Shown piece by piece: positions 12,280-26,459 of a stretch of 32,000 nucleotides of DNA. Under the pieces are notes generated by a model. It saw only the letters and a list, made by a program, of their open reading frames with translations. It ran no database searches and was not told where the DNA came from. Position 1 is the first letter of the stretch, and every line of letters begins with the position of its first letter. Source of the DNA: an uncultured Erysipelotrichaceae bacterium (GTDB lineage Bacteria; Bacillota_I; Bacilli_A; Erysipelotrichales; Erysipelotrichaceae); NCBI GenBank assembly GCA_942492995.1, contig OW818653.1:1890001-1922000 (forward strand), written 5' to 3'. Both the position numbers and the translations under genes were made by a program.

Positions 12280-12286
12280 ATAATTG

Positions 12287-12316: not shown

Positions 12317-12346
12317 ATGATTTTTAGTAAACGCTTACAAAACTTA

Positions 12347-12375
12347 TTGACAACACATATAAGAATTGATATTGT
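12347..12375 (+). promoter_or_regulatory. Candidate promoter of the 12-gene operon
   Basis: TTGACA (12347-12352), a 17-nt spacer, then TATTGT (12370-12375). Confidence 0.45.
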
Positions 12376-12388
12376 ATGGATATAAAAG

Positions 12389-12417
12389 ATGAATCACCTT
12401 TCATATTAGAGATTCAT
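12389..12417 (+). promoter_or_regulatory. Inverted repeat in the leader (candidate operator or RNA hairpin)
   Basis: ATGAATC (12389-12395) and GATTCAT (12411-12417) are exact reverse complements separated by 15 nt. The repeat lies between the -10 element and the GGGG SD. Confidence 0.3.
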
Positions 12418-12432
12418 TCGGGGTAATAACAC

Positions 12433-13638
12433 ATGAGTAAAGTTTATATCGTTAGTGCTAAACGTTCAGCGACAGGTTCCTTTTTAGGAACTCTTAAGAA
12501 TATGTCGGCGGGTGATTTAGGTGCTGCAGTTTTAAAGTCGATCTTAGAAGAAACAAAAATAGATCCAAGTGATATTGATGAAGTCATTATGGGTAATATC
12601 TTACCAGCAGGTCAGGGTCAAGGTGTTGCACGTCAAGTATCAATCAAAGCAGGTATTCCTGTAAGTGTACCAGCATATAGTTTGAATATGGCATGTGGTT
12701 CAGGGATGAAAGCATTAATGAATGCATATACAAGTATTAAATCGGGTATGCATCATTTAGTTGTGGCTGGTGGTGTTGAAATCATGAGTGGTTCTCCCTA
12801 TTTACTTCCAAAAGAAGTAAGAAGTGGGCATAAAATGGGTAATATTAATATGATCGATCATATGATCTATGACGCATTAACAGATGCGTTTGATGGAACA
12901 CATATGGGAATAACGGCTGAGAATATTGCGGCACGTTATAACATTACACGTTTGGAACAAGAACAATTCGCATATAACTCCCAACAAAAAGCCATTAAAG
13001 CAGTAGATACCGATGTGTTTAAAAATGAAATCGTTCCAATCTTAGTAAAAGTTGGAAGAGATGAAGTGAGTTTCGAAAAAGATGAATACCCAAATCGTAA
13101 AACCGATTTAGATAAATTAGCAAGTTTAAAACCAGCCTTTAAAAAGGATGGAGTAGTTACAGCTGGAACCGCATCAGGATTAAATGATGGGGCTAGCATT
13201 ACACTTATTGCCTCCGAGGAAATGGTTAAGAAATATAACTTGAAACCTCTTGCGGAAGTATTGGCGATTGGGCAAGGTGGTGTAGAACCAAATGTTATGG
13301 GACTCGGCCCAACACCTGCCATTCGCCAAGCTCTAAAACATGGGAATCTTAAGTTAAATGATATTGATGTATTCGAATTAAATGAAGCATTCGCTGCACA
13401 AAGTTTAGGTGTTGTACATGAGTTAAGTGTTGAACACAATGTTTCAAAAGAAGAGATTCTAAATAAGACAAATCCAAATGGTGGGGCAATTGCCTTAGGC
13501 CATCCAGTAGGAGCGAGTGGGAATCGAATCTTGGTTACTTTAGTTCATGAATTGCATGCGTTAGATAAAAATATTGGTTGTGCATCACTCTGCATTGGTG
13601 GAGGCATGGGTACAGCTGTTATCATTAAGAAAGTGTAA
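12433..13638 (+). CDS. Acetyl-CoA C-acetyltransferase (thiolase II)
   Basis: It has the catalytic Cys loop NMACGSGMKA, then NEAFAAQ, NPNGGAIALGHPVGASG and the C-terminal CIGGGMG. Confidence 0.92.
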   Translation: MSKVYIVSAKRSATGSFLGTLKNMSAGDLGAAVLKSILEETKIDPSDIDEVIMGNILPAGQGQGVARQVSIKAGIPVSVPAYSLNMACGSGMKALMNAYTSIKSGMHHLVVAGGVEIMSGSPYLLPKEVRSGHKMGNINMIDHMIYDALTDAFDGTHMGITAENIAARYNITRLEQEQFAYNSQQKAIKAVDTDVFKNEIVPILVKVGRDEVSFEKDEYPNRKTDLDKLASLKPAFKKDGVVTAGTASGLNDGASITLIASEEMVKKYNLKPLAEVLAIGQGGVEPNVMGLGPTPAIRQALKHGNLKLNDIDVFELNEAFAAQSLGVVHELSVEHNVSKEEILNKTNPNGGAIALGHPVGASGNRILVTLVHELHALDKNIGCASLCIGGGMGTAVIIKKV

Positions 13639-13650
13639 AAGGGTAGGACA

Positions 13651-14370
13651 ATGAAATTAGAAGGAAAAGTCGCAGTTATTACAGGTGGTGCAAGAGGTTT
13701 AGGTCAAGCAATGGCTGAAGAGTTTGCGAATGCAGGAGCTAAAGTTATTGCGGCAGACATGGGTGAATTAAGTTACAGTCATCCGAATGTAGAAGGATAT
13801 AAATTAAATGTGACGGATTCAGAAGCGTGTTTGAACTTCTTTAATGAAATCGTTAGTAAATATGGGAAAATTGATATCTTAGTTAATAATGCGGGCATTA
13901 CACGTGACGCATTAACACGTAAGATGACTGAAGAAATGTGGGATTTAGTTATTGATGTAAATCTTAAAGGTGTATTCAATCTTACACGTCATGTTGGTCC
14001 ACATATGCAAAATAATCAATCGGGATCAATTATCAATATCGCATCCATCGTTGGTGTATTTGGTAATATCGGACAAGCGAACTATGCGGCTTCTAAAGCA
14101 GGTGTCATTGGTTTAACTAAGACATGGGCAAAAGAATTCGGTATGAAGGGTGGAAATGTGCGTGTCAATGCGATCGCACCTGGATACGTTATGACAGATA
14201 TCTTAAAGACTGTTCCTCAAGATTTATTGGATAAATTCGCAGCTATGACAATGTTAGGTCGTTTAGGACAACCTGAAGAAATTGCGAAAGTTGCGCTATT
14301 CTTAGCGAGTGAAGACGCATCTTACATTACAGGTCAAGTTATTGAACCAAATGGAGGTATGAGACTCTAA
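13651..14370 (+). CDS. SDR-family 3-ketoacyl reductase (FabG / acetoacetyl-CoA reductase-like)
   Basis: It has TGGARGLG, NNAGI and the catalytic Y-x3-K motif (YAASKAG). Confidence 0.85.
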   Translation: MKLEGKVAVITGGARGLGQAMAEEFANAGAKVIAADMGELSYSHPNVEGYKLNVTDSEACLNFFNEIVSKYGKIDILVNNAGITRDALTRKMTEEMWDLVIDVNLKGVFNLTRHVGPHMQNNQSGSIINIASIVGVFGNIGQANYAASKAGVIGLTKTWAKEFGMKGGNVRVNAIAPGYVMTDILKTVPQDLLDKFAAMTMLGRLGQPEEIAKVALFLASEDASYITGQVIEPNGGMRL

Positions 14371-15263
14371 TGAAACAATACGAAGTTAAGAAATTACATT
14401 TAAGTAATGGTGAGACCATCGCATATCGTGAATGTGGAAAAGGTGATAAAACTTTAATTCTAGTCCATGGAAATATGAGTTCATCTGTTCACTTCCAAAC
14501 AACGATGGAAGCACTTGAAAATGATTATAAAATCTATGCGGTTGATATGCGTGGATTCGGTGATAGTTCATATAAAACAGAATTAAATAGTTTACATGAT
14601 TTCTCGATTGATCTACAACTTTGGATTAAAGCTTTAGATCTAACAAACTTTACCATCTTAGGTTGGTCAACTGGTGGTGGTGTTGTCTTAGAGCTAGCAG
14701 CGGATATGCCGAATCGTGTTAATAAAGTACTATTACTTGATTCTGTTGGAATTAAAGGCTATCCAATGTTTAAGAAGGATGACAAAGGTCAAGCAATCTT
14801 AACTCAACTCATCACGACAAAAGAAGAAATAGCGGCAGATCCTGTACAAGTATTACCGATTGTGACAGCGTATGCGACACGTAATAAAGATTTACTAAAG
14901 ATGATTTGGAATGCGGTTATTTATAATCTTAAACAACCAAATGAAGAAGATTATGACTTATATTTAGACGCAATGTTAAAACAACGTAATTTAATCGATG
15001 TGGATTATAGCTTAGTTCATTTCAATATGACACTTGATCATAATGGCGTTAATTCTGGTAGTGGAAGAATTCAATTGGTTAAAGCACCTGTTGTGATTAT
15101 GCATGGTAAAGCAGACTTTGTCGTACCATTCTCTTACGCAGAAGAAATGAAATCATACTTCAAGGATCAAGTAACTCTCGTTCCATTTGAAAACATTGGA
15201 CATTCATGTGTAACCGATAATTTAGATTTATTTATACAAACAGTGAAAGAACACGTGGCATAG
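14370..15263 (+). CDS. Serine alpha/beta-hydrolase
   Basis: It has the HG oxyanion motif (LILVHGN), the nucleophile elbow GWSTGG, and late Asp/His regions (MHGKADFVVP, IGHSCV). The start overlaps the previous stop (TAATG). Confidence 0.8.
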   Translation: MKQYEVKKLHLSNGETIAYRECGKGDKTLILVHGNMSSSVHFQTTMEALENDYKIYAVDMRGFGDSSYKTELNSLHDFSIDLQLWIKALDLTNFTILGWSTGGGVVLELAADMPNRVNKVLLLDSVGIKGYPMFKKDDKGQAILTQLITTKEEIAADPVQVLPIVTAYATRNKDLLKMIWNAVIYNLKQPNEEDYDLYLDAMLKQRNLIDVDYSLVHFNMTLDHNGVNSGSGRIQLVKAPVVIMHGKADFVVPFSYAEEMKSYFKDQVTLVPFENIGHSCVTDNLDLFIQTVKEHVA

Positions 15264-16292
15264 ATGGAAAAATCGAATATAGGGATACTTGGTATTGGTG
15301 TATATCTACCAAACCAAGTTATGACCGCAAAAGAGATTGCGGAAGCGACGAACGGTGTTTGGAGCGAAGAAGCAGTCCGTGAAAAATTAGGTATTACGCA
15401 AAAAACAATTCCAAGTGTTGAAGATGGCACTCAAGAAATGGGTGCACTCGCAGCGATTGAAGCTGTTAAAGATGCGGGAATTGATCCAAGTGAAATCGAT
15501 GTCATTGTATGTTTCGGTGAAGAATGGAAAGAATATCCACTCACAACTTCCGCATTATACATCCAAGATCGCGTAAAGGCTGTTAACGCATGGGGCATTG
15601 ATGTACAAAATCGTTGTTGCACATCCGTCACAGCACTTAAGATGGCGAAAGATATGATGATTGCGGATGATGAGATTAAGACTGTACTTGTTTGTGGAGG
15701 ATACAGAAATGGTGATTTTGTCGATTATACCGACAAGAATATGTCCATGATGTATAACTTATCCGCTGGGGGTGGAGCGCTTATCTTGCGTAAAGGATTA
15801 AATAAAAATTTACTCTTAGGTTCACATATTATCTCAGATGGATCACTAGCACGAACAGCTGGTGTTGAAATCGGTGGAACGATGAATCCAATGAATAAAG
15901 ATAATGTATCAGAAGGCTATAAATCATTACGTTTAATGGATCCTGAGAAGATGAAGAATCGACTCAATGAAGTATCACAAAATAATTGGTTGAAATGTAT
16001 TGACCGTGCTCTAGAAAAATCTAATCTTACGCGTAGTGATATCGGTTATCTAGATATCTTACATATCAAGAAATCAGCTCATTATGGGATGTTACATGAT
16101 TTAGGTCTACGTGATGATCAAAGTATTTATTTAGAGAATTATGGGCATATGGGTCAAGTAGACCAAATACTATCTTTATCGCTTGCGCTTAAAGAGGGCA
16201 AAGTGAAAGATGGGACAGTTATCTGTATGTTAGCTGCAGGCATTGGGTATGTCTGGGCTGCGAATATCGTGAAATGGGGAGTGGCTCAGTGA
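15264..16292 (+). CDS. KAS-III (FabH)-fold condensing-enzyme family protein, atypical
   Basis: It is collinear with FabH: GIGVYLPNQV at the N-terminus, DVQNRCCTS where DVAAACAGF is, and ILHIKK where VPHQAN is. ENYGHMGQ sits where DRHGNTSAAS is, so the catalytic Asn position appears to be His. The start abuts the previous stop. Confidence 0.75.
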   Translation: MEKSNIGILGIGVYLPNQVMTAKEIAEATNGVWSEEAVREKLGITQKTIPSVEDGTQEMGALAAIEAVKDAGIDPSEIDVIVCFGEEWKEYPLTTSALYIQDRVKAVNAWGIDVQNRCCTSVTALKMAKDMMIADDEIKTVLVCGGYRNGDFVDYTDKNMSMMYNLSAGGGALILRKGLNKNLLLGSHIISDGSLARTAGVEIGGTMNPMNKDNVSEGYKSLRLMDPEKMKNRLNEVSQNNWLKCIDRALEKSNLTRSDIGYLDILHIKKSAHYGMLHDLGLRDDQSIYLENYGHMGQVDQILSLSLALKEGKVKDGTVICMLAAGIGYVWAANIVKWGVAQ

Positions 16293-17164
16293 GTACGTTT
16301 ATCCAAATCTTACTAAGAAGTTTAGAGTCTGGTAGTGTTTATGCACTAGCAGCTTTAGGCATCATTATTATCTATCGTACGTCTAACATCACAAACTTCT
16401 CGCAAGGGGTAGTTGGTATGTTTAATACCTACGTAGTAACCTTCTTATTTATGAAAACGGGGGCTCCTTTGTGGTTGTGTATTTTGGGTGGTGTAGTTAG
16501 TGCGATACTAGTAGGATTAACGATCGACTTTCTGGTTATTCGACATACGAAGAAAGTTGCGCCAGTTGCTAAACAGATCATTACATTAGGATTAATCATG
16601 GTTATTATGGGAATCGCACCACTTTTATTCGGTGTTGATCCATTAAATCTACCAAAGTTAATTGGTGAAGGTAATTTAACTTTAGCCGGTGCGAATATTT
16701 CATACAATGGTTTATTTAATATCATATTTGGTTTAGTTCTTATGTTTGTTTTATTCTATACCTTACAAAAAACTAAAATTGGTCTTGCGGTTCGAACAAC
16801 CGCATCCAATGAATATACCGCTCGTTTAATGGGTGTTCCTACTAAAACCGTTACTTTAGGCGCATGGGCAGTTGCCGGTGTCCTAGGTGTTTTAGCGGGA
16901 GTTATGATAGCGCCTACGACAACAGTTACTTTAAATCTAATGGATGTTGTACAGATTAATGCCTTAGTCGCATGTGTTCTTGGTGGTTTTCAAACCTTCT
17001 ATGGACCGATTATTGGGGCTTATTTAATCGGTGTTAGTCGTAACTTATTAATCTATTATGTATCAAGTGTATGGGGTGGACAAATCCTTTACATCCTAAT
17101 ATTAATTTTCTTAATCTTTAGACCATACGGTTTAATTGGTAAGAAAACAGTGAAGAAAGTGTAG
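16274..17164 (+). CDS. HAAT-family (LivH-type) ABC transporter permease
   Basis: It is a polytopic membrane protein with LivH-like motifs (SGSVYALAALGIIIIYRTSNITNFSQG, GLAVRTTASNEYTARLMGV). An alternative GTG start at 16289 overlaps the upstream stop as GTGA. Confidence 0.88.
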   Translation: MGSGSVSTFIQILLRSLESGSVYALAALGIIIIYRTSNITNFSQGVVGMFNTYVVTFLFMKTGAPLWLCILGGVVSAILVGLTIDFLVIRHTKKVAPVAKQIITLGLIMVIMGIAPLLFGVDPLNLPKLIGEGNLTLAGANISYNGLFNIIFGLVLMFVLFYTLQKTKIGLAVRTTASNEYTARLMGVPTKTVTLGAWAVAGVLGVLAGVMIAPTTTVTLNLMDVVQINALVACVLGGFQTFYGPIIGAYLIGVSRNLLIYYVSSVWGGQILYILILIFLIFRPYGLIGKKTVKKV

Positions 17165-17171
17165 GTGTGAA

Positions 17172-18212: not shown

Positions 18213-19008
18213 AAATGAAGTTCTGAAGATAGAGAACTTATCCATTGCCTTCGGAGGATTAAAAGCAGTCGATAATCTTACATTTGAAATTAAGAAGAAT
18301 GAAATATTTGGTTTAATTGGACCGAATGGTGCAGGTAAAACAACGGTATTTAATTGTATTACCCAGTTCTATAAACCCAATGATGGAAAGATATTGTTTA
18401 GATTAAAAGATGGCAGTGAAACGAATTTAGTTGATCATAAAGTACATGAAATTATCAAACTTGGTTTAGTACGTACCTTCCAGAACGTTGAACTCATTCG
18501 TGAGTTAAGCATCTTAGATAACGTTATGATTGGGGCACATATCGACTTTAAAGCGAGCATTCTTGAACAAGCTCTAAGATTACCAAGAGCGCGTAAAGAA
18601 GAGAAGGCATTACGGTTAGAAGCAGAAGAAATATTAAAGCGTTTAGGGATATGGGATCGTAAAGATATGTTGGTCTTTGGACAACCATATGGGATTCTAA
18701 AGAAAGTTGAAATGGCACGTACCTTAATGTGTCGTCCAACTCTCATTATTCTAGATGAACCAGCAGCGGGGTTAAATGATGTGGAAACCATTCAACTAGC
18801 TCAATTAATACGTACCATTCGCGATGAATTTAATTGTTCAGTTCTATTAGTTGAACATGATATGCGCTTAGTTATGGATGTATGTGATCGTATTTGTGCT
18901 ATCTCGTTCGGTAAATTCTTAGCGAAGGATACAGCGAAAGAGATTCAGAAGAATAAATCGGTACAAGAAGCGTACCTAGGAAGTTCTGAGGAAATTCAAC
19001 ATGTCTAG
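18193..19008 (+). CDS. HAAT-family (LivG-type) ABC ATP-binding protein
   Basis: It has Walker A GPNGAGKTT, Walker B LIILDEPAAG and H-loop LVEHDM. The true start may be ATG 18202. Confidence 0.9.
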   Translation: MGIMLSENEVLKIENLSIAFGGLKAVDNLTFEIKKNEIFGLIGPNGAGKTTVFNCITQFYKPNDGKILFRLKDGSETNLVDHKVHEIIKLGLVRTFQNVELIRELSILDNVMIGAHIDFKASILEQALRLPRARKEEKALRLEAEEILKRLGIWDRKDMLVFGQPYGILKKVEMARTLMCRPTLIILDEPAAGLNDVETIQLAQLIRTIRDEFNCSVLLVEHDMRLVMDVCDRICAISFGKFLAKDTAKEIQKNKSVQEAYLGSSEEIQHV

Positions 19009-19720
19009 TACAGCACTCTTTATTAAAGGCTTAAAAGTTAGATATGGAGCGATTGAAGCACTTAAAGGCATTGATATGGAAGTTAAAGAAGGCGATGTCG
19101 TAGCGATATTGGGTGCGAATGGGGCTGGTAAAACGACCACATTACGTACAATATCAGGACTCATCGAACCAGCAGAAGGAAGCATTCTCTTCTACAATCA
19201 TGAGATTGGTAGGGAAGAACCTGAGAAGATTGCGGCACTTGGTTTATCACAATCACCAGAAGGAAGACAAGTATTTAGAGATTTAACCGTAGAAGAAAAC
19301 TTGAAAGTAGGTGCATTTACGGTAAGAGATAAAAAGATTATTAAAGAACAGTTTGAAAAAGTATATCGTTACTTTCCAGTTCTTAAGGAACGTAAAAACC
19401 AAATATCATCAACCTTATCCGGTGGTGAACAACAGATGTTAGCGATTGGACGAGCATTGATGAGTAATCCTAAAATATTACTCTTAGATGAACCATCCCT
19501 TGGTCTAGCACCATTAATCATTCGCGATATTATGAACATCGTTCTTGAGATTAAGAAATCAGGAACTACCGTAATCATTGTCGAACAGAATGCGGCACAA
19601 ACCTTAAAGATTGCGGATTATGCGTATGTGTTGGAGTTGGGTGAAATCAGTACTCATGGTCCAGCGAAAGACTTGCTTAACGATCCTAAGCTCATTGAAG
19701 CGTATCTTGGATCACATTAA
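19001..19720 (+). CDS. HAAT-family (LivF-type) ABC ATP-binding protein
   Basis: It has Walker A GANGAGKTT, the signature LSGGEQQMLAIGRAL, Walker B LLLDEPSLGLAP, and EQN. Confidence 0.9.
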   Translation: MSSTALFIKGLKVRYGAIEALKGIDMEVKEGDVVAILGANGAGKTTTLRTISGLIEPAEGSILFYNHEIGREEPEKIAALGLSQSPEGRQVFRDLTVEENLKVGAFTVRDKKIIKEQFEKVYRYFPVLKERKNQISSTLSGGEQQMLAIGRALMSNPKILLLDEPSLGLAPLIIRDIMNIVLEIKKSGTTVIIVEQNAAQTLKIADYAYVLELGEISTHGPAKDLLNDPKLIEAYLGSH

Positions 19721-19766
19721 TTTGGTATCAATGCGAAACGCATTATATAAACAAAAGGAGGAATAC

Positions 19767-20993
19767 ATGATGTTTAAGAAGTTGTTTATGGTTCTTACAG
19801 TTATGGCTCTAGCGACGACACTCGTTGCTTGTGCGCCAAAAGAAGAAGTAGTTGAAGAAGTCGCAGCTCAAGGGATTACAGACACTGAAGTGTTAATCGC
19901 TAACTGTGCAGCAACATCTGGTGCATTTGCGCCAGTTGGTACTCCGTTTATTGCAGGGATTGAAGCTTACTTAAAAACGGTCAATGATGCTGGTGGTATC
20001 GATGGACGTACAATTAAATTCTTACACCAAGACGATGAATTTGATCCTGCAAAGGGTAAAGCATGTTTAGCATCTATGGTTGAAGATGAAAAAGTCTTCG
20101 CTATCGTTGGTCACTTTGGTACTCCAGTTGTTGGGGCTACTTTAGAAGATCTTAAAGATTATGGTATTCCAGCTGTATACTTCGCTACAGGTATCGGTCA
20201 ACTTTATAATGATAAAGCTGAAGGTCGCGACCGTGGTATTATGCCTGTTCAACCAATTTATGTCACAGAAGGACAAATCATGGTTGCGCGTGCTGTTGGG
20301 GATTTCGGAGCTAAGACAATCGGTATTATCTATACAAATGATGATGCTGGTAAAGACATTTTAGCTGGTGCTCAAAAGAAAGCTGCTGAATTAGGTATTA
20401 CATTAGTTGAAGCTCAAGTTGCGCCTGGTACAGATGATGCGTCTGCAGCAGTTACAACAATTAAAGAAGCAAATGTAGATTTCATTATCGGTGGAGCAAT
20501 CCAAGCAACGATTCCTACAATCATTAAAGAATTAGCTGCTCAAGGTAATGACAAAGATTTAATCACAACATACGTTAACGTTGCGCCAGTTATTGCGGAA
20601 TCCGTAATGAATGAAATCGCTGGTAAATTTGATGTATACGGTAGTGGTTGGGTATCATTTGAAGGTGATGACCGTATGGCTGCACTTAATGAATTCGCAA
20701 CTGCTTTACCTGAATATTCTGCTAATGCATACGCTATGACTGGCTGGATTGCCGCAACATTCTTCGTAGAAGGTTTACGTCGTTTAGAAGGTGACAAGAT
20801 TGTTACTTGGGAAAACTACTTAGACGCTATGGAATCTGCACCAATCCAAAATCCATTTGGTGGTTTAATTGATTACACAAATGGTCTACGTGCTGGTACA
20901 CAAGAAATGAACTTATCCAAGATCAACCCTACAACTCCTACTAAATGGGAAGTTGTCGATGGTTTAAGATCAATGGATGATTTATTAAGCTAA
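19767..20993 (+). CDS. HAAT-family (LivJ-like, Peripla_BP_6) substrate-binding lipoprotein, ligand unknown
   Basis: An AAAGGAGG SD precedes ATGATG at 19767. The signal peptide with lipobox is MMFKKLFMVLTVMALATTLVAC. The body is type-I PBP-like (IDGRTIKFLHQDDEFDP..., VGHFGTPVV). The track start at 19611 lies inside livF and is an artefact. Confidence 0.85.
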   Translation: MMFKKLFMVLTVMALATTLVACAPKEEVVEEVAAQGITDTEVLIANCAATSGAFAPVGTPFIAGIEAYLKTVNDAGGIDGRTIKFLHQDDEFDPAKGKACLASMVEDEKVFAIVGHFGTPVVGATLEDLKDYGIPAVYFATGIGQLYNDKAEGRDRGIMPVQPIYVTEGQIMVARAVGDFGAKTIGIIYTNDDAGKDILAGAQKKAAELGITLVEAQVAPGTDDASAAVTTIKEANVDFIIGGAIQATIPTIIKELAAQGNDKDLITTYVNVAPVIAESVMNEIAGKFDVYGSGWVSFEGDDRMAALNEFATALPEYSANAYAMTGWIAATFFVEGLRRLEGDKIVTWENYLDAMESAPIQNPFGGLIDYTNGLRAGTQEMNLSKINPTTPTKWEVVDGLRSMDDLLS

Positions 20994-21016
20994 TAGGTTA
21001 CAATTAAATAGAACTG

Positions 21017-21042
21017 GTTGCGGAAGTTAAACCTTCCGCAAC
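21017..21042 (+). other. Strong intra-operon hairpin without a U-tract
   Basis: Perfect 10-bp stem GTTGCGGAAG / CTTCCGCAAC with a 6-nt loop, followed by ACCCTTTATGG, which is not a T-run. Confidence 0.6.
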
Positions 21043-21049
21043 ACCCTTT

Positions 21050-22369
21050 ATGGAGAAAACAATAATGGATATTTCAATCAAAAAGATTACTGCAAGTGAA
21101 GCTGTTAAAAAAGTAAAAAGTGGAATGATGATCGTTACAGGACTTGGATGTGCTGAAGGACGTGCGTTCTTAGGCGAATTACATACTGTTGCGGATGAAG
21201 TGAGTGGCGTTACAGTTACGAACTGTCTACCGATGTCAGATCCAGAGTTTATGAAGAAGGAATATAAAAATTCATTCTATGTGGATGGATGGTTCTATTC
21301 CCCAGCTTTACGTAAAGCACATCAAAATGGAAATATATCCTTTATCCCGAATCATTTACATCTTGCTGGGACAAAGCGTTTAGCGCATGTTCATACAGAT
21401 ATATATGTCGGTGCTTGTTCAATGCCTGATAAACACGGATATGTCTCATTATCCTTGAGTAATACGTATGAAAAACGTGTCATTGAAGAAGCAGATTTAG
21501 TTATATTAGAAATTAACCCACATATGCCATATACCTATGGTGATTTAGAATTGCATTTAGATGAAGTAGACTATGTAATTGAAGCAGATTATTATCCTGC
21601 AGAATTACCGGATGTCGAACCGAATGAACGAGATATTGCGATTGGGAATAATATTGCGAGCCAAATCAATGATGGAGATTGTATCCAATTAGGGATTGGT
21701 GGTATTCCAAATGCGGTCGCATCTGCACTAAAGAATAAACGTGATTTAGGGGTTCATACAGAGATGTTAACAACTGGTCTCATGAAACTCGCTAAAATGG
21801 GTGTTATTACAAACAAACGTAAAACATTACATAAAGGTAAGATGGTCTGTACTTTTGCGATGGGAAGTAAAGAACTCTATGAGTTTATTGATCATAATCC
21901 AGGTGTCGCAGTTCTTGATGGTGCGTATACCAATGATCCACATATTATTGGGTTAAACGATAATATGGTTTCAATTAATACAACCTTAGAAATTGATTTA
22001 ACTGGACAATGTTGTTCAGAGTCTATTGGTTCTACTCAATTTAGTGGAACAGGTGGACAAGTTGATACTGCAGTTGGGGCTCAAAATGCGAAGAACGGAA
22101 GATCGTTTATAGCGTTATATTCTACCGCAATGGTTAAGAATCCTGAAACTGGTGAACGTGTTGAAACATCTAAGATTGTCCCTCAATTAAAGCAAGGGGC
22201 TGTCGTAACCTTAAGTCGTAATGATGTGAATTATGTCGTGACTGAATATGGAATGGTTAATCTAAAGGGTACTAATGTACGTGAACGTGTGAAGTTGTTA
22301 ATCTCGATTGCACATCCTAAATTCAGAGATGAATTGCTTGAACAAGCTAAATCATTGGGAATCTTATAA
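21050..22369 (+). CDS. Acetyl-CoA hydrolase/transferase-family CoA-transferase (4-hydroxybutyrate / butyryl-CoA:acetate type)
   Basis: It has the family motifs GIGGIPNAV, HTEMLT and SGTGGQVD, and the expected length of about 435 aa. ATG 21065, with GGAG 9 nt upstream, is an alternative start. Confidence 0.85.
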   Translation: MEKTIMDISIKKITASEAVKKVKSGMMIVTGLGCAEGRAFLGELHTVADEVSGVTVTNCLPMSDPEFMKKEYKNSFYVDGWFYSPALRKAHQNGNISFIPNHLHLAGTKRLAHVHTDIYVGACSMPDKHGYVSLSLSNTYEKRVIEEADLVILEINPHMPYTYGDLELHLDEVDYVIEADYYPAELPDVEPNERDIAIGNNIASQINDGDCIQLGIGGIPNAVASALKNKRDLGVHTEMLTTGLMKLAKMGVITNKRKTLHKGKMVCTFAMGSKELYEFIDHNPGVAVLDGAYTNDPHIIGLNDNMVSINTTLEIDLTGQCCSESIGSTQFSGTGGQVDTAVGAQNAKNGRSFIALYSTAMVKNPETGERVETSKIVPQLKQGAVVTLSRNDVNYVVTEYGMVNLKGTNVRERVKLLISIAHPKFRDELLEQAKSLGIL

Positions 22370-23184
22370 TGGCTACTTTAGATTTTAAAGATTATTCAAT
22401 TTACTATGAAGTGTATGGCAAAGGTAAACCACTTGTTATGCTCAACGGAATTATGATGTCTACAGCGAGTTGGCAAATGTTTATTATGAACTTTAGTCAA
22501 TCCAATCAATTGATTCTTGTCGATATGTTAGATCAAGGTCAATCGTCTAAATTAGAAGGACAAATCTACACACAAGATATTCAAGTTGAAGTTGTTAAGA
22601 CGTTAATTGAAAAGTTAAACTTAAAAGAAGTTGCGTTATTTGGGATATCGTATGGTGGCGAAGTTGCGATTAAACTTGCGATTAAATACCCGCATTTAGT
22701 CGAAAGATGTTTACTCTTTAATACCACGAGTTATACCAATTCATGGTTAAAAGAAATTGGTAATGCGTGGAATCTTGCGAGTCCAAACGCTGAACAATAC
22801 TATGGCACAACTATCCCAGTAATTTATTCATCCGACTTTTATGAATCCAAGATTAAATGGATGACGCATCGTAAACAAATCCTTTTAAATGTATTCGCTA
22901 ATCCAGTGTTTCAACGTGCAATGGTACGCTTAACTAACAGCGCAAATTCATTGGATGAACGACATAATCTACATAAAATAAAATGCCCATGTTTGATCGT
23001 TGGATGTGATGAAGATGCGATTACACCTATTTCTCATCAACGGTATCTTCATGAAAACATTAAGTCTTCAAGTTTAGTTATTATTCCTGGTTCTGGGCAT
23101 GCGTCAATGTATGAGAAACCAATGTTATTTAGTTCACTTGTACTTGGATTTGTGCATTCGTTGATTATTCCAGATGTGGTATAA
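22369..23184 (+). CDS. Serine alpha/beta-hydrolase (second copy, different subfamily)
   Basis: It has the nucleophile elbow GISYGG and late Asp/His regions (VGCDEDAITP, GSGHASMYEKP). The start overlaps the upstream stop (TAATG). Confidence 0.8.
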   Translation: MATLDFKDYSIYYEVYGKGKPLVMLNGIMMSTASWQMFIMNFSQSNQLILVDMLDQGQSSKLEGQIYTQDIQVEVVKTLIEKLNLKEVALFGISYGGEVAIKLAIKYPHLVERCLLFNTTSYTNSWLKEIGNAWNLASPNAEQYYGTTIPVIYSSDFYESKIKWMTHRKQILLNVFANPVFQRAMVRLTNSANSLDERHNLHKIKCPCLIVGCDEDAITPISHQRYLHENIKSSSLVIIPGSGHASMYEKPMLFSSLVLGFVHSLIIPDVV

Positions 23185-23207
23185 TTGAAACGATTTGAGG
23201 GAAAATT

Positions 23208-23798
23208 GTGAACACTCTTGTAAACCAACCAAAAACTAAACGAGGACAAGCGACACTAGATCGACTTTGTGCTGCGGCTGAACAATTATTCTTTAAAAAA
23301 GGGTATCATGGGACTTCGATTAATGATATTACCTATAAGGCAAAAGTTGCGCCAGGAACGTTCTACATTTACTTTACGGATAAATTGAGTTTGTATAAAT
23401 ATCTTCTTATTTCGTATAGTCATCAAATTCGTATGAATATTGCGAAGGATGTGAAGGATTGTAAGGATCGTAAAGAAATAGAGCGGATTGGGTTAAAGAG
23501 TTTCTTAGTATTTATCAAAGAAAATAAACATGTTTATAACATTATTTGGGAGTCCTTGTATATCGATAAGAAATTATTTATCGAATATTATACCGATTTC
23601 GCAGCGAATTACGTTAAACATATAACTGAAGCACAAGCGATGGGTGAAATGAAAAATCATGATCCTGAAGTTGTGGCATATATCTTAATGGGTGTTTCAA
23701 ACTTTATTGGGTTGAATTGGATTATGTTCAAAGAATCCAGTGAATTTGATACAGTTGTAGATAAAGTTATTAAGGCATTAGATGAAGGATTATTTTAA
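23208..23798 (+). CDS. TetR/AcrR-family transcriptional regulator
   Basis: The N-terminal TetR HTH reads LDRLCAAAEQLFFKKGYHGTSINDITYKAKVAPGTFYIYF. It uses a GTG start with a GAGGG SD. Confidence 0.88.
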   Translation: MNTLVNQPKTKRGQATLDRLCAAAEQLFFKKGYHGTSINDITYKAKVAPGTFYIYFTDKLSLYKYLLISYSHQIRMNIAKDVKDCKDRKEIERIGLKSFLVFIKENKHVYNIIWESLYIDKKLFIEYYTDFAANYVKHITEAQAMGEMKNHDPEVVAYILMGVSNFIGLNWIMFKESSEFDTVVDKVIKALDEGLF

Positions 23799-23818
23799 AG
23801 GTGGTAACACCTTTTTTT
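23798..23818 (+). terminator. Rho-independent terminator ending the 12-gene operon
   Basis: AAGGTG / CACCTT stem with a GTAA loop and a T7 run. Confidence 0.8.
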
Positions 23819-23852
23819 AGTTGTAATTCATGTTTTAAGGTATAATAGATTT

Positions 23853-26386: not shown

Positions 26387-26459
26387 TATGTAGAATATAT
26401 GTGAAAATTAGATAATAATAGTGCATATTTTAATAAAAAACTATAAAGGAGCTATAATT

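What the first reader, a model, noticed from the sequence alone, without database searches (positions are those of the whole stretch)
12347..23818. 12-gene, ~11.4 kb operon fusing acyl-CoA/beta-keto chemistry with a Liv-type ABC importer under a TetR regulator
Between one promoter-like site (12347) and one terminator (23798-23818) lie twelve genes: thiolase, SDR ketoreductase, alpha/beta-hydrolase, FabH-fold enzyme, LivH/M/G/F-type transporter, LivJ-type lipoprotein, 4-hydroxybutyrate-type CoA-transferase, a second alpha/beta-hydrolase, and TetR.
Gene junctions are overlaps or gaps of at most 56 nt (TAATG twice, stop/ATG abutting, 8-20 nt overlaps). No ACP, malonyl transacylase, crotonase or acyl-CoA dehydrogenase is present. 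It is therefore neither a fab cluster nor a standard butyrate or beta-oxidation cluster.
HAAT-family binding proteins are known to bind non-amino-acid ligands such as aromatic and aliphatic acids. My inference is import of a small organic acid or ester, ester hydrolysis, CoA activation by transfer, oxidation or reduction at C3, and thiolytic cleavage, for example of 3-hydroxyacyl or beta-keto-acid oligomers. The reverse, biosynthetic direction is also possible. I do not recognise this gene combination as a described pathway.
Basis: inference. Interest (0 to 1): 0.7.

Follow-up and report, generated by a model that had tools for sequence, protein, structure and literature searches.

The report
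Conserved 3-hydroxybutyrate-ester uptake and breakdown operon
This is a real, widely conserved 12-gene operon that most likely lets anaerobic Firmicutes and wall-less bacteria import 3-hydroxybutyrate or its small esters (breakdown products of the bioplastic PHB) and turn them into acetyl-CoA; one strongly conserved FabH-like enzyme in it has no known job.

Summary
Twelve tightly packed + strand genes lie between a promoter (12347-12375) and a terminator (23797-23814).

The block is not a chance adjacency. In 40 species-level genomes with enough flank, sdr, hyd2 and TetR occur in 40, the Liv-type transporter and the CoA-transferase in 39, and thiolase in 38. The flanking genes differ between genomes.

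- Hydrolase 1 is 46% identical to the solved Bacillus thuringiensis PHB depolymerase and passes NCBIfam's curated cut-off for that family.
- The SDR is a close relative of the NADH-dependent Acholeplasma laidlawii "FabG".
- The CoA-transferase is of the 4-hydroxybutyrate/butyryl type.
- The binding protein lacks LivJ's amino-acid-contacting residues.
- 13-16 related loci add a MaoC hydratase, a short-chain acyl-CoA dehydrogenase and EtfBA, and 11 add acetate kinase.

Conserved cre-like and palindromic operator motifs point to a repressible catabolic operon.

I could not resolve the role of the FabH-like enzyme (PRK06840 family, Cys-His-His). It also travels with Liv-type transporters in haloarchaea and Bacillales. 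No paper in the searched library describes this cluster.

Verdict: new variant of a known kind, interest about 0.6.

The parts
12286..12309 (+). Intrinsic terminator of the upstream mannitol operon (mtlD); it marks the 5' boundary of the unit
   Evidence: 10-bp stem followed by TTTTTTTT; sequence
12326..12339 (.). cre-like site (AGTAAACGCTTACA), just upstream of the -35 box; probable CcpA catabolite-repression site
   Evidence: 1 mismatch to TGWAANCGNTNWCA.: a cre-like site occurs in 34 of 63 thiolase-upstream regions of related loci, against 1.7% of shuffled controls. Within the window alone the count is not significant.
12347..12375 (+). Sigma-70-type promoter, TTGACA-17-TATTGT with an extended -10 TG
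   Evidence: A TTGACA box at a similar offset is visible in several related upstream regions (by eye, not quantified).
12389..12404 (.). 16-bp palindrome ATGAATCACCTTTCAT (consensus ATGAAY-N4-RTTCAT), 14 nt downstream of the -10 box; probable operator of the TetR repressor
   Evidence: present with at most 1 mismatch in 48 of 63 related upstream regions, against 0.6% of shuffled controls.
12433..13638 (+). Acetyl-CoA acetyltransferase-type thiolase (Cys in NMACGSG, His in GHPVGASG, Cys in CIGGGMG)
   Evidence: Thiolase_N and Thiolase_C.: TIGR01930 457 bits against a cut-off of 240.55. Present in 38 of 40 loci.
13651..14370 (+). Classical SDR; probably an NAD(H)-dependent (R)-3-hydroxyacyl-CoA dehydrogenase / acetoacetyl-CoA reductase
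   Evidence: 4NBT (A. laidlawii) E 2.4e-121, 407 bits; 2ET6, a (3R)-hydroxyacyl-CoA dehydrogenase, E 5.5e-72. one search lists 4NBT among NAD-bound dehydrogenases. Asp36 at the end of beta-2 (VIAADM) is read. Present in 40 of 40 loci.
14370..15263 (+). Cytoplasmic alpha/beta hydrolase of the Bacillus PhaZ type (intracellular short-chain-length PHA depolymerase family); lipase box GWSTG; no signal peptide
   Evidence: NF050089 381 bits against a cut-off of 300.: 46% identical over 288 columns to B. thuringiensis PHB depolymerase 8YNV, E 2.8e-86. A hyd1-type hydrolase is present in 30 of 40 loci; three tested ones in Mollicutes-type loci also pass the cut-off.
15264..16292 (+). KAS III (FabH)-fold protein of the PRK06840 family, with Cys118-His267-His295; role unresolved
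   Evidence: NF005308 474 bits against a cut-off of 315; FabH TIGR00747 only 113.5 against 292.: triad mapped, and invariant in 121 close orthologues.: pLDDT 94.4, TM 0.85 to E. coli FabH at 23% identity.
16274..17164 (+). LivH-type permease; its start overlaps the FabH-like stop by 19 nt
   Evidence: BPD_transp_2
17172..18212 (+). LivM-type permease
   Evidence: BPD_transp_2
18193..19008 (+). LivG-type ATPase
   Evidence: ABC_tran and BCA_ABC_TP_C
19001..19720 (+). LivF-type ATPase
   Evidence: ABC_tran
19767..20993 (+). Lipoprotein substrate-binding protein of the HAAT family (Peripla_BP_6), without LivJ's amino-acid-binding residues
   Evidence: NF011933 48 bits against a cut-off of 477.: best PDB hits 4N03 and 3LOP; LivJ reaches only about 1e-6.: Y18V, C78G, T102G, Y150A, Y202I, and the P-E226-G segment aligns to a gap.
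21017..21042 (+). 10-bp GC-rich hairpin immediately after the binding-protein gene, with no T run on the + strand; candidate attenuator or mRNA-stabilising element
   Evidence: A GC-rich hairpin is predicted at the same position in most related loci, with a different sequence in each lineage.
21050..22369 (+). Single-chain family-I CoA-transferase of the 4-hydroxybutyrate / butyryl-CoA:acetate type (probable true start 21065)
   Evidence: TIGR03948 302 bits against a cut-off of 675.: 3EH7 E 1.6e-103 and 3GK7 E 1e-93. Present in 39 of 40 loci.
22369..23184 (+). Second cytoplasmic alpha/beta hydrolase (GISYG nucleophile elbow), MGS-M2-type esterase
   Evidence: 4Q3L MGS-M2 E 2.7e-70. Present in 40 of 40 loci.
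23208..23798 (+). TetR-family regulator, closest to regulators that I recall (or whose names indicate) as acyl-CoA-responsive
   Evidence: TetR_N.: FasR, RefZ and Bacillus FadR models are the best hits, all below their cut-offs.: 6EL2/6EN8 E 1.8e-29; also 6O6N and 3WHB. Present in 40 of 40 loci.
23797..23821 (+). Intrinsic terminator closing the unit
   Evidence: AAAGGTG-GTAA-CACCTTT followed by TTTTT

Best explanation
This is a substrate-inducible, glucose-repressible catabolic operon of an Erysipelotrichaceae bacterium. It scavenges (R)-3-hydroxybutyrate and/or its short oligomeric esters, which are the soluble products of PHB breakdown, and converts them to acetyl-CoA.

Proposed steps:
1. 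The lipoprotein binding protein and LivHMGF-type ABC importer take up the acid or ester. This step is inferred. The protein family is shown, and the loss of the amino-acid contacts is shown by alignment.
2. Two cytoplasmic serine hydrolases, one of the Bacillus PhaZ type and one an MGS-M2-type esterase, cleave the ester bonds to give 3-hydroxybutyrate. The families are shown. The substrate is inferred.
3. The 4-hydroxybutyrate/butyryl-type CoA-transferase makes (R)-3-hydroxybutyryl-CoA, using acetyl-CoA or butyryl-CoA as donor. This step is inferred.
4. The NAD-dependent FabG-like SDR oxidises it to acetoacetyl-CoA. A close relative in A. laidlawii is described as NADH-dependent. I recall, but could not verify here, that it was assayed on acetoacetyl-CoA.
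5. The thiolase gives two acetyl-CoA. This step is inferred.

In a subset of other genomes the same cluster is joined to a MaoC-type (R)-hydratase, a short-chain acyl-CoA dehydrogenase, EtfBA and acetate kinase. That would complete a fermentation of 3-hydroxybutyrate to acetate plus butyrate.

For regulation, I propose that the TetR represses through the 16-bp palindrome downstream of the -10 box and is probably released by a CoA thioester. I propose that a cre site next to the -35 box imposes CcpA catabolite repression.

The FabH-like Cys-His-His enzyme is an integral and strongly conserved part of the unit, but its reaction is not established.
For: Conservation as a unit:
- The identical 12-gene order is found in a genome whose FabH-like protein is only 77% identical and whose upstream neighbours differ.
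- At least 493 candidate stretches in the species-representative genome collection encode a relative of the FabH-like protein; the 80 loci kept are 69-90% identical to it.
- Among 40 loci with enough flank, the counts are sdr, hyd2 and tetR 40, livHMGF, sbp and coaT 39, thl 38, and a hyd1-type hydrolase 30. The flanking genes maf and mtlD appear in only 7 and 3.
- A locus whose FabH-like protein is 40% identical carries the same kinds of genes in a different order.

Substrate class:
- hyd1 scores 381 bits on NF050089 (cut-off 300) and is 46% identical to B. thuringiensis PhaZ.
- The three PhaZ-type hydrolases tested from Acholeplasma and Tenericutes clusters also pass the cut-off.
- The SDR matches 4NBT at E 2.4e-121 and a (3R)-hydroxyacyl-CoA dehydrogenase at E 5.5e-72.
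- The CoA-transferase matches 4-hydroxybutyrate CoA-transferases at E 1e-93 to 1e-103.
- The binding protein lacks the LivJ ligand residues, and both transporter subtypes share the same replacements.
- Neither hydrolase has a signal peptide, whereas the binding protein has a lipobox.
- C4 chemistry is supported by the neighbours in related loci: maoC in 16, acd in 15, etfA and etfB in 13 each, and ackA in 11. In L018, L022, L023, L029 and L042 they sit directly upstream on the same strand.

Catabolic direction and regulation:
- The operator-like palindrome is present in 48 of 63 upstream regions, against 0.6% of shuffled controls. The cre-like site is present in 34 of 63, against 1.7%.
- The TetR is closest to regulators that I recall as acyl-CoA-responsive.
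Against: - No ligand, substrate or transcript was measured. Every substrate assignment rests on homology at 46% identity or lower, apart from the SDR, which matches the A. laidlawii enzyme at 407 bits.
- PhaZ-family membership is an HMM call. The Bacillus enzyme acts on intracellular granules, and I could not test whether these genomes lack a PHB synthase.
- The CoA-transferase falls below every equivalog cut-off (302 against 675), so its acid specificity is open.
- The scheme needs no FabH-like enzyme, yet that gene is among the best-conserved in the block and is invariant at its catalytic residues. The scheme is therefore incomplete.
- Distant PRK06840 homologues sit with Liv-type transporters and acyl-CoA ligases but without a thiolase or PhaZ. 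The ancestral module may therefore act on a different acid.
- The promoter, cre-like site and operator are not individually significant within the window.
Confidence: 0.55

Rival explanations
1. The architecture and logic are the same (import, ester or lactone hydrolysis, CoA transfer, C3 oxidation, thiolysis), but the true substrate is a different short hydroxy- or keto-acid or its ester or lactone. Candidates include free ketone bodies only, 3-hydroxyvalerate or 2-methyl-3-hydroxy acids, and medium-chain (R)-3-hydroxy fatty acids. For the last group, the shortened acyl-CoA would be kept for membrane lipid, and the FabH-like enzyme would cleave or form the non-C4 beta-ketoacyl-CoA.
For: - The CoA-transferase and hyd2 pass no substrate-specific cut-off.
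- The binding protein's best solved relative is 4N03. I recall, unverified, that this is a fatty-acid-bound protein.
- The TetR resembles regulators that I recall as long-chain acyl-CoA sensors.
- Distant FabH-like homologues sit next to lactonase-like NHL or PQQ-like propellers rather than alpha/beta hydrolases.
- A second Claisen-type enzyme beside the thiolase would make sense if two different beta-ketoacyl-CoAs had to be handled.
Against: - PhaZ-type hydrolases pass a curated cut-off for short-chain-length PHA depolymerases, both here and in the three tested ones from distant clusters.
- The associated acyl-CoA dehydrogenase is of the short-chain, Etf-linked type (best NCBIfam hit the clostridial acryloyl-CoA reductase model, below its cut-off), and acetate kinase is a recurrent neighbour.
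- The window carries no hydratase or acyl-CoA dehydrogenase, and without them only a C4 or C5 3-hydroxy acid can be fully degraded.
Confidence: 0.2
2. The enzymes run in the reductive direction, as an (R)-specific route from acetyl-CoA. The thiolase makes acetoacetyl-CoA, the NADH-dependent reductase makes (R)-3-hydroxybutyryl-CoA, and the CoA-transferase releases 3-hydroxybutyrate. Where maoC, acd and etf are present, the route gives butyrate. The pathway would serve as an electron sink. Alternatively, the FabH-like enzyme would build 3-hydroxybutyrate esters or oligomers, as a phaA-phaB-phaC analogue.
For: - The thl-sdr-fabH order recalls phaA-phaB-phaC.
- The relative of the SDR is described in the literature as an NADH-dependent reductase.
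- With maoC, acd and etfBA the gene set amounts to a complete butyrogenic pathway.
- KAS III-like enzymes such as CerJ, which is among the PDB hits, form esters from acyl-CoA (my recollection).
Against: - A binding-protein-dependent ABC importer is present in 39 of 40 loci.
- There are two cytoplasmic hydrolases, one of them of depolymerase type.
- A conserved cre-like site implies repression when sugars are available, which is when a fermentative electron sink would be needed.
- No synthase, phasin or exporter is present in the window or in the recurrent gene clusters of the loci.
Confidence: 0.12
3. This is a primer-salvage system. The transporter imports short, possibly branched, carboxylic acids. 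The CoA-transferase activates them, or an acyl-CoA ligase does so in Bacillales and haloarchaea. The FabH-like protein is a genuine decarboxylating KAS III that condenses the acyl-CoA with a malonyl thioester, and the FabG-like SDR reduces the product for lipid synthesis.
For: - The KAS III fold is predicted with high confidence, and a Cys-His-His triad is compatible with decarboxylative condensation as in KAS I/II.
- Distant homologues lie in TetR / AMP-ligase / FabH-like / SDR / Liv-ABC arrangements.
- NCBIfam names the SDR a FabG subfamily member (246 bits against a cut-off of 222).
Against: - No ACP, FabD, dehydratase or enoyl reductase is present in the block.
- The FabH equivalog and subfamily cut-offs are missed by a wide margin.
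- The thiolase, the PhaZ-type hydrolase, the CoA-transferase and the cre-like site are left unexplained.
- The SDR carries the Asp that typically marks NAD-preferring, often catabolic, SDRs (read).
Confidence: 0.08
4. The grouping is a chance adjacency. An ordinary Leu/Ile/Val importer happens to sit between unrelated acyl-CoA enzymes.
For: Pfam and NCBI name the permeases and ATPases 'branched-chain amino acid transport'.
Against: - The transporter is embedded in or adjacent to the same enzyme set in 39 of 40 genomes from several classes, while the outer neighbours vary.
- The association survives gene-order shuffling at 40% identity.
- It also survives replacement of the transporter by a subtype only 30-40% identical.
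- The LivJ ligand contacts are lost.
Confidence: 0.02

Closest known systems
E. coli atoDAEB short-chain fatty acid / acetoacetate operon, and bacterial ketolysis (BdhA, a CoA-transferase such as ScoAB, and thiolase)
   Same: The logic is the same: a dedicated transporter, a CoA-transferase that activates the acid at the expense of acetyl-CoA, a thiolase that yields acetyl-CoA, and a dehydrogenase acting at C3.
   Different: - The transporter is a binding-protein-dependent HAAT ABC system, not AtoE.
- The CoA-transferase is a single-chain enzyme of the 4-hydroxybutyrate type, not two-subunit AtoDA/ScoAB (TIGR02428 scores only 24 bits).
- The dehydrogenase is FabG/PhaB-like and probably acts on the CoA ester rather than the free acid.
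- Two ester hydrolases and a FabH-like enzyme are added.
- Control is by a TetR and a cre-like site rather than by AtoSC.
Bacillus intracellular PHB mobilisation (B. thuringiensis PhaZ; PDB 8YNV; NCBIfam NF050089)
   Same: hyd1 passes the curated family cut-off, is 46% identical over its full length, and keeps the GWSxG nucleophile box.
   Different: In this operon the enzyme is co-transcribed with an importer. No PHB synthase, phasin or PhaR is present in the window or in the recurrent neighbour genes of the 80 loci. It probably acts as an oligomer or ester hydrolase on imported substrate rather than on the cell's own granules. That last point is inferred and untested.
Anaerobic 3-hydroxybutyrate / PHB fermentation as described biochemically for Ilyobacter delafieldii (Janssen and Schink, recalled from memory, not re-read here)
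   Same: CoA transfer to 3-hydroxybutyrate, oxidation to acetoacetyl-CoA, thiolysis and ATP formation through acetate kinase, with a reductive branch to butyrate. These are the activities encoded here and in the extended loci.
   Different: As far as I know, that work was enzymological and identified no genes. Here the dehydration step is of the MaoC (R)-specific type, and an unexplained FabH-like enzyme is present.
HAAT-family ABC importers for non-amino-acid carboxylates, such as the aromatic-acid-binding proteins of Rhodopseudomonas palustris (4EVQ, 4EVR and 4EVS are among the weak PDB hits; their organism is my recollection)
   Same: A LivJ-fold binding protein with LivHMGF-type membrane and ATPase parts, genetically linked to a CoA-activating enzyme.
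   Different: Sequence similarity to the solved examples is low (E 1e-7 to 1e-14), the ligand is unknown, and the linked activating enzyme is a CoA-transferase rather than a ligase.
KAS III (FabH) and KAS III-like enzymes (BioZ, PqsD, OleA, CerJ, DpsC)
   Same: A thiolase-fold protein in the KAS III size range, with a nucleophilic Cys at the FabH Cys112 position and a His at the His244 position.
   Different: - The third catalytic residue is His rather than Asn.
- The FabH models are missed (113 bits against 292), and identity to FabH is about 23%.
- The genomic partners are a transporter and catabolic CoA enzymes, not ACP or FASII genes.
- OleABCD was considered and rejected, because there is no OleC-type ligase and the SDR is of the classical FabG type.

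Membership tests
KAS III / FabH (beta-ketoacyl-ACP synthase III) | Thiolase-superfamily KAS III fold | tested here: met
   AlphaFold model with pLDDT 94.4. Foldseek TM 0.85 and probability 1.00 to E. coli FabH 6X7R.
KAS III / FabH (beta-ketoacyl-ACP synthase III) | Cys-His-Asn catalytic triad | tested here: not met
   Cys118 and His267 are present, but FabH Asn274 is replaced by His295. This is invariant in 121 close orthologues.
KAS III / FabH (beta-ketoacyl-ACP synthase III) | Score above the curated FabH model cut-offs | tested here: not met
   TIGR00747 113.5 bits against 292.1; NF006829 120.8 against 249.
KAS III / FabH (beta-ketoacyl-ACP synthase III) | Genomic association with ACP and FASII genes | tested here: not met
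   No ACP, FabD, FabZ or FabI in the window or among the recurrent neighbour genes of the 80 loci.
PRK06840 / NF005308 ('3-oxoacyl-ACP synthase', no described function that I know of) | Score above the curated cut-off | tested here: met
   473.7 bits against a cut-off of 315. The 40%-identical homologue in L082 also passes, with 434 bits.
Intracellular short-chain-length PHA depolymerase (NF050089; B. thuringiensis PhaZ type) | Score above the curated equivalog cut-off, with full-length similarity to the characterised enzyme | tested here: met
   381.3 bits against a cut-off of 300. 8YNV E 2.8e-86, 46% identity over 288 columns.
Intracellular short-chain-length PHA depolymerase (NF050089; B. 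thuringiensis PhaZ type) | Ser nucleophile in a GWSxG box, plus a C-terminal His | tested here: met
   GWSTG aligns with the GWSMG of 8YNV, and the GHS motif is conserved (alignment).
Intracellular short-chain-length PHA depolymerase (NF050089; B. thuringiensis PhaZ type) | Hydrolysis of native PHB granules in a PHB-accumulating host | not testable with these tools
The whole genome was not available to check for phaC; none is present in the 32-kb window.
LIV-I / HAAT branched-chain amino acid ABC transporter | LivH, LivM, LivG and LivF plus a Peripla_BP_6 binding protein | tested here: met
   Pfam BPD_transp_2 twice, ABC_tran twice, BCA_ABC_TP_C and Peripla_BP_6.
LIV-I / HAAT branched-chain amino acid ABC transporter | The binding protein keeps LivJ's amino-acid contacts (Tyr18, Ser79, Thr102, Tyr150, Tyr202, Glu226) and passes the BCAA model | tested here: not met
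   Val, Thr, Gly, Ala, Ile and a gap at those positions. The alignment is at roughly 20% identity, so the assignments are approximate. NF011933 scores 48 bits against a cut-off of 477.
4-hydroxybutyrate CoA-transferase / butyryl-CoA:acetate CoA-transferase (family I, single chain) | AcetylCoA_hydro and AcetylCoA_hyd_C domains, with strong similarity to solved members | tested here: met
   3EH7 E 1.6e-103 and 3GK7 E 1e-93.
4-hydroxybutyrate CoA-transferase / butyryl-CoA:acetate CoA-transferase (family I, single chain) | Equivalog-level score, and for the 4-hydroxybutyrate pathway a partner 4-hydroxybutyryl-CoA dehydratase | tested here: not met
   TIGR03948 302 bits against a cut-off of 675. 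No AbfD-like gene in the window or among the recurrent neighbours in the loci.
NADH-dependent FabG-like / (R)-3-hydroxyacyl-CoA dehydrogenase SDR | Close similarity to the A. laidlawii enzyme described as NADH-dependent, and an acidic residue at the end of beta-2 | tested here: met
   4NBT E 2.4e-121, 407 bits. 4NBT is listed as an NAD-bound A. laidlawii enzyme, with the NADH-dependent FabG study cited. Asp36 in VIAADM is read. The cofactor rule itself is established SDR knowledge.
TetR-family repressor with a palindromic operator | TetR_N helix-turn-helix domain and a conserved palindrome in the controlled promoter | tested here: met
   The palindrome is present in 48 of 63 upstream regions, against 0.6% of shuffled controls. 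Binding and the effector were not tested.
CcpA/cre catabolite repression | A cre consensus at the promoter, conserved among orthologous operons | tested here: inconclusive
   A 1-mismatch site lies at 12326-12339. A site is present in 34 of 63 related upstream regions, against 1.7% of shuffled controls. CcpA binding cannot be tested here, and the count within the window alone is not significant.
OleABCD olefin / beta-lactone pathway | OleA together with an OleC AMP-dependent beta-lactone synthetase and an OleD 3-beta-HSD-type reductase | tested here: not met
   No AMP-binding protein is present in the block, and the SDR is of the classical FabG type. OleA is only a distant structural neighbour at 15-16% identity.

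The most novel reading that the evidence does not exclude
The PRK06840-type FabH-like protein may be a new kind of thiolase-superfamily enzyme that works hand in hand with HAAT importers. In this operon it would use Cys118 to take the 3-hydroxybutyryl or acetoacetyl unit directly from an imported oxo-ester and pass it to CoA. That is a thiolytic depolymerisation which conserves the ester-bond energy and spares a CoA-transfer step. An alternative is that it performs a retro-Claisen cleavage that ordinary thiolases cannot do. The whole cluster would then define a widespread, previously unrecognised route by which anaerobic Firmicutes, Acholeplasma and Izemoplasma-type wall-less bacteria, and some gut Clostridia, feed on other organisms' PHB.
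Probability: 0.15. Interest if true: 0.85.

Novelty: new variant of a known kind. Interest (0 to 1): 0.6.

Why it matters
- PHB is one of the most abundant microbial storage polymers and a commercial bioplastic. As far as I know, how strict and facultative anaerobes consume its soluble breakdown products is known mainly from enzyme assays, not from genes.
- This cluster offers a concrete, testable gene set. It is present in at least several hundred species-level genomes, including MAGs whose record names point to anaerobic digesters, groundwater and sediments and to human and animal guts.
- Current annotation labels its parts "FabH", "FabG" and "branched-chain amino acid transporter". These labels would mislead metabolic reconstructions, for example by implying fatty-acid synthesis or amino-acid uptake in Mollicutes-like genomes.
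- It flags an uncharacterised, well-conserved KAS III-like family (PRK06840) that is genetically tied to HAAT transporters in both Bacteria and Archaea. Its chemistry may be new.
- It provides a candidate 3-hydroxybutyrate-responsive or acyl-CoA-responsive TetR/operator pair for biosensor work.

Tried and rejected
- **Distant alignments for locus search.** Alignments of distant FabH-like relatives (A1, A2) had no stretch conserved enough for the search for related loci. A closer alignment (A3) worked, so the 80 loci sample only relatives at 69% identity or above.
- **Literature.** They covered combinations of PhaZ, FabH, CoA-transferase, ABC transporter, TetR, 3-hydroxybutyrate, Acholeplasma, Erysipelotrichaceae, MGS-M2 and anaerobic PHB. 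None found a description of this cluster. The key primary papers are not held in the library: Tseng 2006 on PhaZ, Javidpour 2014 on NADH-dependent FabG, and the MGS-M2 paper.
- **Contexts of distant FabH-like representatives.** P0123 is not on record. P0132, P0135, P0140 and P0149 gave short or uninformative contexts.
- **OleABCD analogy.** Rejected, because there is no OleC and the SDR is of the wrong type.
- **4-hydroxybutyrate / gamma-butyrolactone pathway.** Rejected, because there is no 4-hydroxybutyryl-CoA dehydratase.
- **Mevalonate / HMG-CoA chemistry.** Rejected. There are only weak N-terminal HMG-CoA synthase hits, and no reductase or lyase.
- **Phloroglucinol or triacetate, carnitine, beta-amino-acid and acyl-homoserine-lactone routes.** Rejected for lack of their signature enzymes.
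- **Perfect cre match inside the FabH-like gene (15491-15504).** Not conserved: only 7 of 80 orthologues have it within 1 mismatch. It coincides with the conserved EIDV codons, so it is most likely a coding coincidence.
- **The 7-nt inverted repeat ATGAATC-N15-GATTCAT.** Only its left arm belongs to the conserved 16-bp palindrome.
- **Extra transporter in loci without the ABC genes.** The genes that follow the cluster in L031 and L037 are RNA methyltransferases and a helicase, not permeases.
- **Fold search.** The structure prediction confirmed the KAS III fold but gave no functional discrimination.

Full report
**1. The observation**

The window has about 35% G+C. Its best protein matches carry Erysipelotrichaceae names.

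Twelve + strand ORFs run from 12433 to 23798.
- gaps of 12, 7, 46, 56 and 23 nt;
- two 1-nt TAATG overlaps;
- one abutting stop/start;
- overlaps of 19, 20 and 8 nt.

Upstream, a strong hairpin with a T run (12286-12309) closes the mannitol operon. It is followed by a TTGACA-17-TATTGT promoter with a TG extension (12347-12375). A hairpin with a T run at 23797-23814 follows the TetR gene.

Pfam and NCBIfam confirm every family assignment. None of the 12 products is an ACP, malonyl transacylase, crotonase or acyl-CoA dehydrogenase.

I add two details:
- A 10-bp GC-rich hairpin without a T run lies just after the binding-protein gene (21017-21042).
- The CoA-transferase more likely starts at 21065, behind a GGAG.

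**2. The block is not a chance adjacency**

A genome whose FabH-like protein is 77% identical carries the same 12 genes in the same order, with different upstream neighbours.

A pattern scan of one genome per species found at least 493 candidate stretches that encode a relative of the FabH-like protein. The 80 loci kept (69-90% identity) come from these groups:
- Erysipelotrichaceae;
- Acholeplasmataceae, Izemoplasmatales and "Tenericutes";
- Christensenellales;
- Clostridium, Proteiniclasticum and Alloiococcus;
- a Synergistaceae MAG;
- gut Clostridia.

I ran tblastn with the 12 window proteins against these loci. Among the 40 loci with enough flank, the counts are:

| Gene | Loci (of 40) |
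|---|---|
| sdr, hyd2, tetR | 40 |
| livHMGF, sbp, coaT | 39 |
| thl | 38 |
| hyd1-type hydrolase | 30 |
| outer neighbour maf | 7 |
| outer neighbour mtlD | 3 |

Gene order varies by lineage:
- Erysipelotrichaceae place hyd1 between sdr and fabH, and tetR last.
- Mollicutes-type and Christensenellales loci have a divergent tetR and a PhaZ-type hydrolase at the end.
- Three Acholeplasma loci lack the transporter between fabH and coaT.
- One locus has the transporter upstream.

A locus whose FabH-like protein is only 40% identical still carries TetR, a CoA-transferase, an SDR, a binding protein, LivHMGF, two hydrolases and a thiolase, in a shuffled order.

The transporter occurs in two subtypes, 65-79% or 30-40% identical to the window's. 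Both are always of the Liv type.

**3. What the parts are**

*Hydrolase 1.* It scores 381 bits on NCBIfam NF050089, the family of intracellular short-chain-length PHA depolymerases (cut-off 300). It is 46% identical over 288 columns to the solved Bacillus thuringiensis PHB depolymerase 8YNV, with the GWSxG box conserved. The terminal hydrolases of three Mollicutes-type clusters also pass the cut-off, at 327-349 bits.

*Hydrolase 2.* It matches the metagenomic esterase MGS-M2 (4Q3L, E 2.7e-70). Neither hydrolase has a signal peptide. The binding protein has a lipobox.

*SDR.* It matches the Acholeplasma laidlawii "FabG" 4NBT at E 2.4e-121, and a (3R)-hydroxyacyl-CoA dehydrogenase at E 5.5e-72. 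4NBT is listed among NAD-bound dehydrogenases and comes from the study of NADH-dependent FabG. I recall that the study assayed these enzymes with acetoacetyl-CoA, but the paper is not held in the library. The window protein has Asp36 at the end of beta-2. By established SDR rules this is the usual NAD-preference marker.

*CoA-transferase.* It matches 4-hydroxybutyrate CoA-transferases at E 1e-93 to 1e-103. Its best NCBIfam model is butyryl-CoA:acetate CoA-transferase, but the score is below the cut-off (302 against 675).

*Thiolase.* It is of the acetoacetyl-CoA type (TIGR01930, 457 bits).

*TetR.* Its closest solved relative is 6EL2/6EN8 (E 1.8e-29). I recall this as the acyl-CoA-responsive FadR of Sulfolobus acidocaldarius. 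Other hits are FasR and Bacillus FadR.

*Binding protein.* Its similarity to LivJ is only about E 1e-6. An alignment with LivJ and LivK shows LivJ's ligand contacts replaced, and the same replacements occur in both transporter subtypes:
- Tyr18 becomes Val;
- Cys78 becomes Gly;
- Thr102 becomes Gly;
- Tyr150 becomes Ala;
- Tyr202 becomes Ile or Asn;
- the Pro-Glu226-Gly segment that holds the alpha-ammonium group aligns to a gap.

The alignment is at roughly 20% identity, so these assignments are approximate.

**4. Extra genes in relatives**

I clustered all ORFs of the 80 loci. Recurrent neighbours are:
- a MaoC-type (R)-specific enoyl-CoA hydratase, in 16 loci;
- a short-chain acyl-CoA dehydrogenase whose best NCBIfam hit, below cut-off, is the clostridial acryloyl-CoA reductase model, in 15 loci;
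- EtfB and EtfA, in 13 loci each;
- acetate kinase, in 11 loci.

In L018, L022, L023, L029 and L042 the maoC, acd, etfB and etfA genes lie directly upstream of thl on the same strand. In Erysipelotrichaceae L010, L011 and L036 an ackA-maoC-acd-etfBA set is transcribed divergently from the same control region.

These additions fit a C4 hub at (R)-3-hydroxybutyryl-CoA with two branches:
- an oxidative branch to acetyl-CoA and acetate, yielding ATP;
- a reductive branch through crotonyl-CoA to butyryl-CoA and butyrate.

**5. Regulation**

I aligned the upstream regions by eye and then counted motifs.
- A 16-bp palindrome, ATGAAY-N4-RTTCAT, is present in 48 of 63 thiolase-upstream regions, against 0.6% of shuffled controls. 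In the window it is ATGAATCACCTTTCAT at 12389-12404, 14 nt downstream of the -10 box.
- A cre-like site, TGWAANCGNTNWCA, is present in 34 of 63, against 1.7% of shuffled controls. In the window it lies at 12326-12339, next to the -35 box.

Inside the window alone neither motif is significant. The evidence is their conservation in position.

Together they suggest repression by the TetR and by CcpA, which is the signature of a catabolic operon for a secondary carbon source.

A GC-rich hairpin after the binding-protein gene recurs in most related loci, with lineage-specific sequences. It may give a higher yield of transporter mRNA or partial termination. "One promoter, one terminator" may therefore be a simplification.

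**6. Mechanism proposed**

The steps are import of (R)-3-hydroxybutyrate or its short esters, cytoplasmic ester hydrolysis, CoA transfer, NAD-dependent oxidation to acetoacetyl-CoA, and thiolysis to acetyl-CoA.

What is shown:
- the protein families;
- the conservation of the block;
- the loss of the amino-acid contacts in the binding protein;
- the conservation of the motifs.

What is inferred:
- the ligand;
- the direction of flux;
- the effector of the TetR;
- a single transcript.

I put the confidence at about 0.55 for 3-hydroxybutyrate-type substrates. My confidence is much higher, about 0.85, for the general statement: a conserved catabolic unit for an imported non-amino-acid carboxylate or ester that is handled as a CoA thioester.

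**7. The unexplained part**

The FabH-like protein passes the PRK06840/NF005308 cut-off (474 against 315) but misses the FabH models by a wide margin. Its predicted structure is a confident KAS III fold (pLDDT 94.4; TM 0.85 to E. coli FabH at 23% identity).

Its catalytic residues map as follows:
- Cys118 aligns with FabH Cys112.
- His267 aligns with FabH His244.
- His295 replaces FabH Asn274.
- All three are invariant in 121 close orthologues.
- In distant family members the Cys is sometimes Ser, Gly or Arg.

It keeps about 70% identity across bacterial classes, second only to the SDR in the block. In the window its stop overlaps the livH start.

Homologues at 33-36% identity show the same kind of association:
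- Haloarchaeal plasmids: SBP-LivGFHM-FabH-like, with an 8-nt overlap, followed by a PQQ-like propeller gene.
- Brevibacillus laterosporus: TetR / AMP-ligase / FabH-like / NHL propeller / SDR.
- Bacillus sp. N5-665: TetR / AMP-ligase / FabH-like / NHL propeller / SBP / LivGFHM.
- A metagenomic contig: LivFHM / AMP-ligase / FabH-like.

This family is therefore recurrently tied to HAAT importers, a CoA-activating enzyme and a TetR. The simple ketolysis scheme does not need it.

The possibilities I see are:
- thiolytic transfer of the acyl unit from an oxo-ester to CoA;
- a retro-Claisen cleavage on a substrate the thiolase cannot handle;
- genuine decarboxylative condensation.

None of these could be tested here.

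**8. Comparison with known systems, and novelty**

The logic matches the ato/ketolysis pathways, Bacillus PHB mobilisation, and the enzymology of anaerobic 3-hydroxybutyrate fermentation (the last recalled from memory). It differs in four respects:
- the transporter type;
- the CoA-transferase type;
- the (R)-specific CoA-level dehydrogenase;
- the FabH-like member.

All ten full-text searches found no description of the cluster.

I classify it as a new variant of a known kind. Current annotations ("FabH", "FabG", "branched-chain amino acid ABC transporter") are probably misleading for it.

**9. Limits**

- No whole genomes were available, so I could not test whether the carriers lack phaC.
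- The 80 loci sample only close relatives of the FabH-like protein.
- The binding-site inference rests on a low-identity alignment.
- The properties of MGS-M2, 4N03, 6EL2 and the Javidpour enzymes beyond their PDB names are my recollection.

Noticed in passing
L018 4472-7780; L010 2108-6782; also L011, L022, L023, L024, L029, L032, L036, L042, L044, L053, L062, L073, L079: In 13-16 related loci the cluster is joined, on the same strand or divergently, to a MaoC-type enoyl-CoA hydratase, a short-chain acyl-CoA dehydrogenase and EtfB/EtfA. In 11 loci it is joined to acetate kinase. The window itself has none of these.
   Followed up: yes
L090 (Halobaculum roseum plasmid) 4385-12348; L091 (Brevibacillus laterosporus) 7317-13745; L093 (Bacillus sp. 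N5-665) 9457-19733; L084: Homologues of the FabH-like protein at 33-36% identity sit in or next to Liv-type ABC transporter operons, together with AMP-dependent acyl-CoA ligases, TetR regulators and NHL or PQQ-like beta-propeller proteins. This holds in haloarchaea and in Bacillales. It looks like a recurrent transporter / KAS III-like module with no described function.
   Followed up: partly
window 21017-21042, and the sbp-coaT intergenic region of most related loci: A GC-rich hairpin of about 9-12 bp follows the binding-protein gene in nearly every lineage, with a different sequence in each. Some copies carry a T run (for example L010) and most do not. It may serve differential expression of the transporter genes relative to the distal genes.
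   Followed up: partly
window 6789-6802 and 6868-12279: The upstream neighbour is a mannitol PTS operon: EIIC 6868-7923, a PRD/Mga-type regulator 8310-10439, EIIB/EIIA 10415-11146 and mannitol-1-phosphate dehydrogenase 11143-12279. A cre-like site (TGAAACCGCTTTAA) lies about 65 nt before the first gene.
   Followed up: no
window 2470-4977: An 835-aa fusion protein combines a pyridine-nucleotide disulfide oxidoreductase, a rhodanese, a TusA and a DsrE-like domain. It is a compact sulfur-trafficking or persulfide-reductase-like protein. A similar gene is present upstream in L001.
   Followed up: no
L018 13075-14532 and 15365-17125; L037 4109-5617: In Mollicutes-type clusters the LivG ATPase is larger (485 aa in L018, with roughly 240 N-terminal residues that have no Pfam hit; the L037 counterpart is 502 aa but was not scanned). 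The L018 binding protein carries an N-terminal Big_3 Ig-like domain. Neither feature is present in the window's proteins.
   Followed up: no
window 15491-15504: A perfect cre consensus (TGAAATCGATGTCA) lies inside the FabH-like gene. It overlaps the conserved EIDV codons and is kept within 1 mismatch in only 7 of 80 orthologues. It is probably a coding coincidence.
   Followed up: yes
window 450-1490 and 26421-31068: A WYL/WCX-domain regulator lies at 450-1490. Downstream of the operon are a ROK-family protein (25422-26321, minus strand), an Abhydrolase_3 esterase (26421-27344), an AraC-type response regulator with a histidine kinase (27393-29782), and an ABC ATPase (29782-31068). None is conserved next to the cluster in the related loci.
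   Followed up: no
L082 5533-6540 (minus strand): The 40%-identity variant of the cluster carries a second, more FabH-like paralogue. It scores 192 bits on NF006829 and 145 bits on PRK06840, and lies between the TetR and CoA-transferase genes.
   Followed up: no
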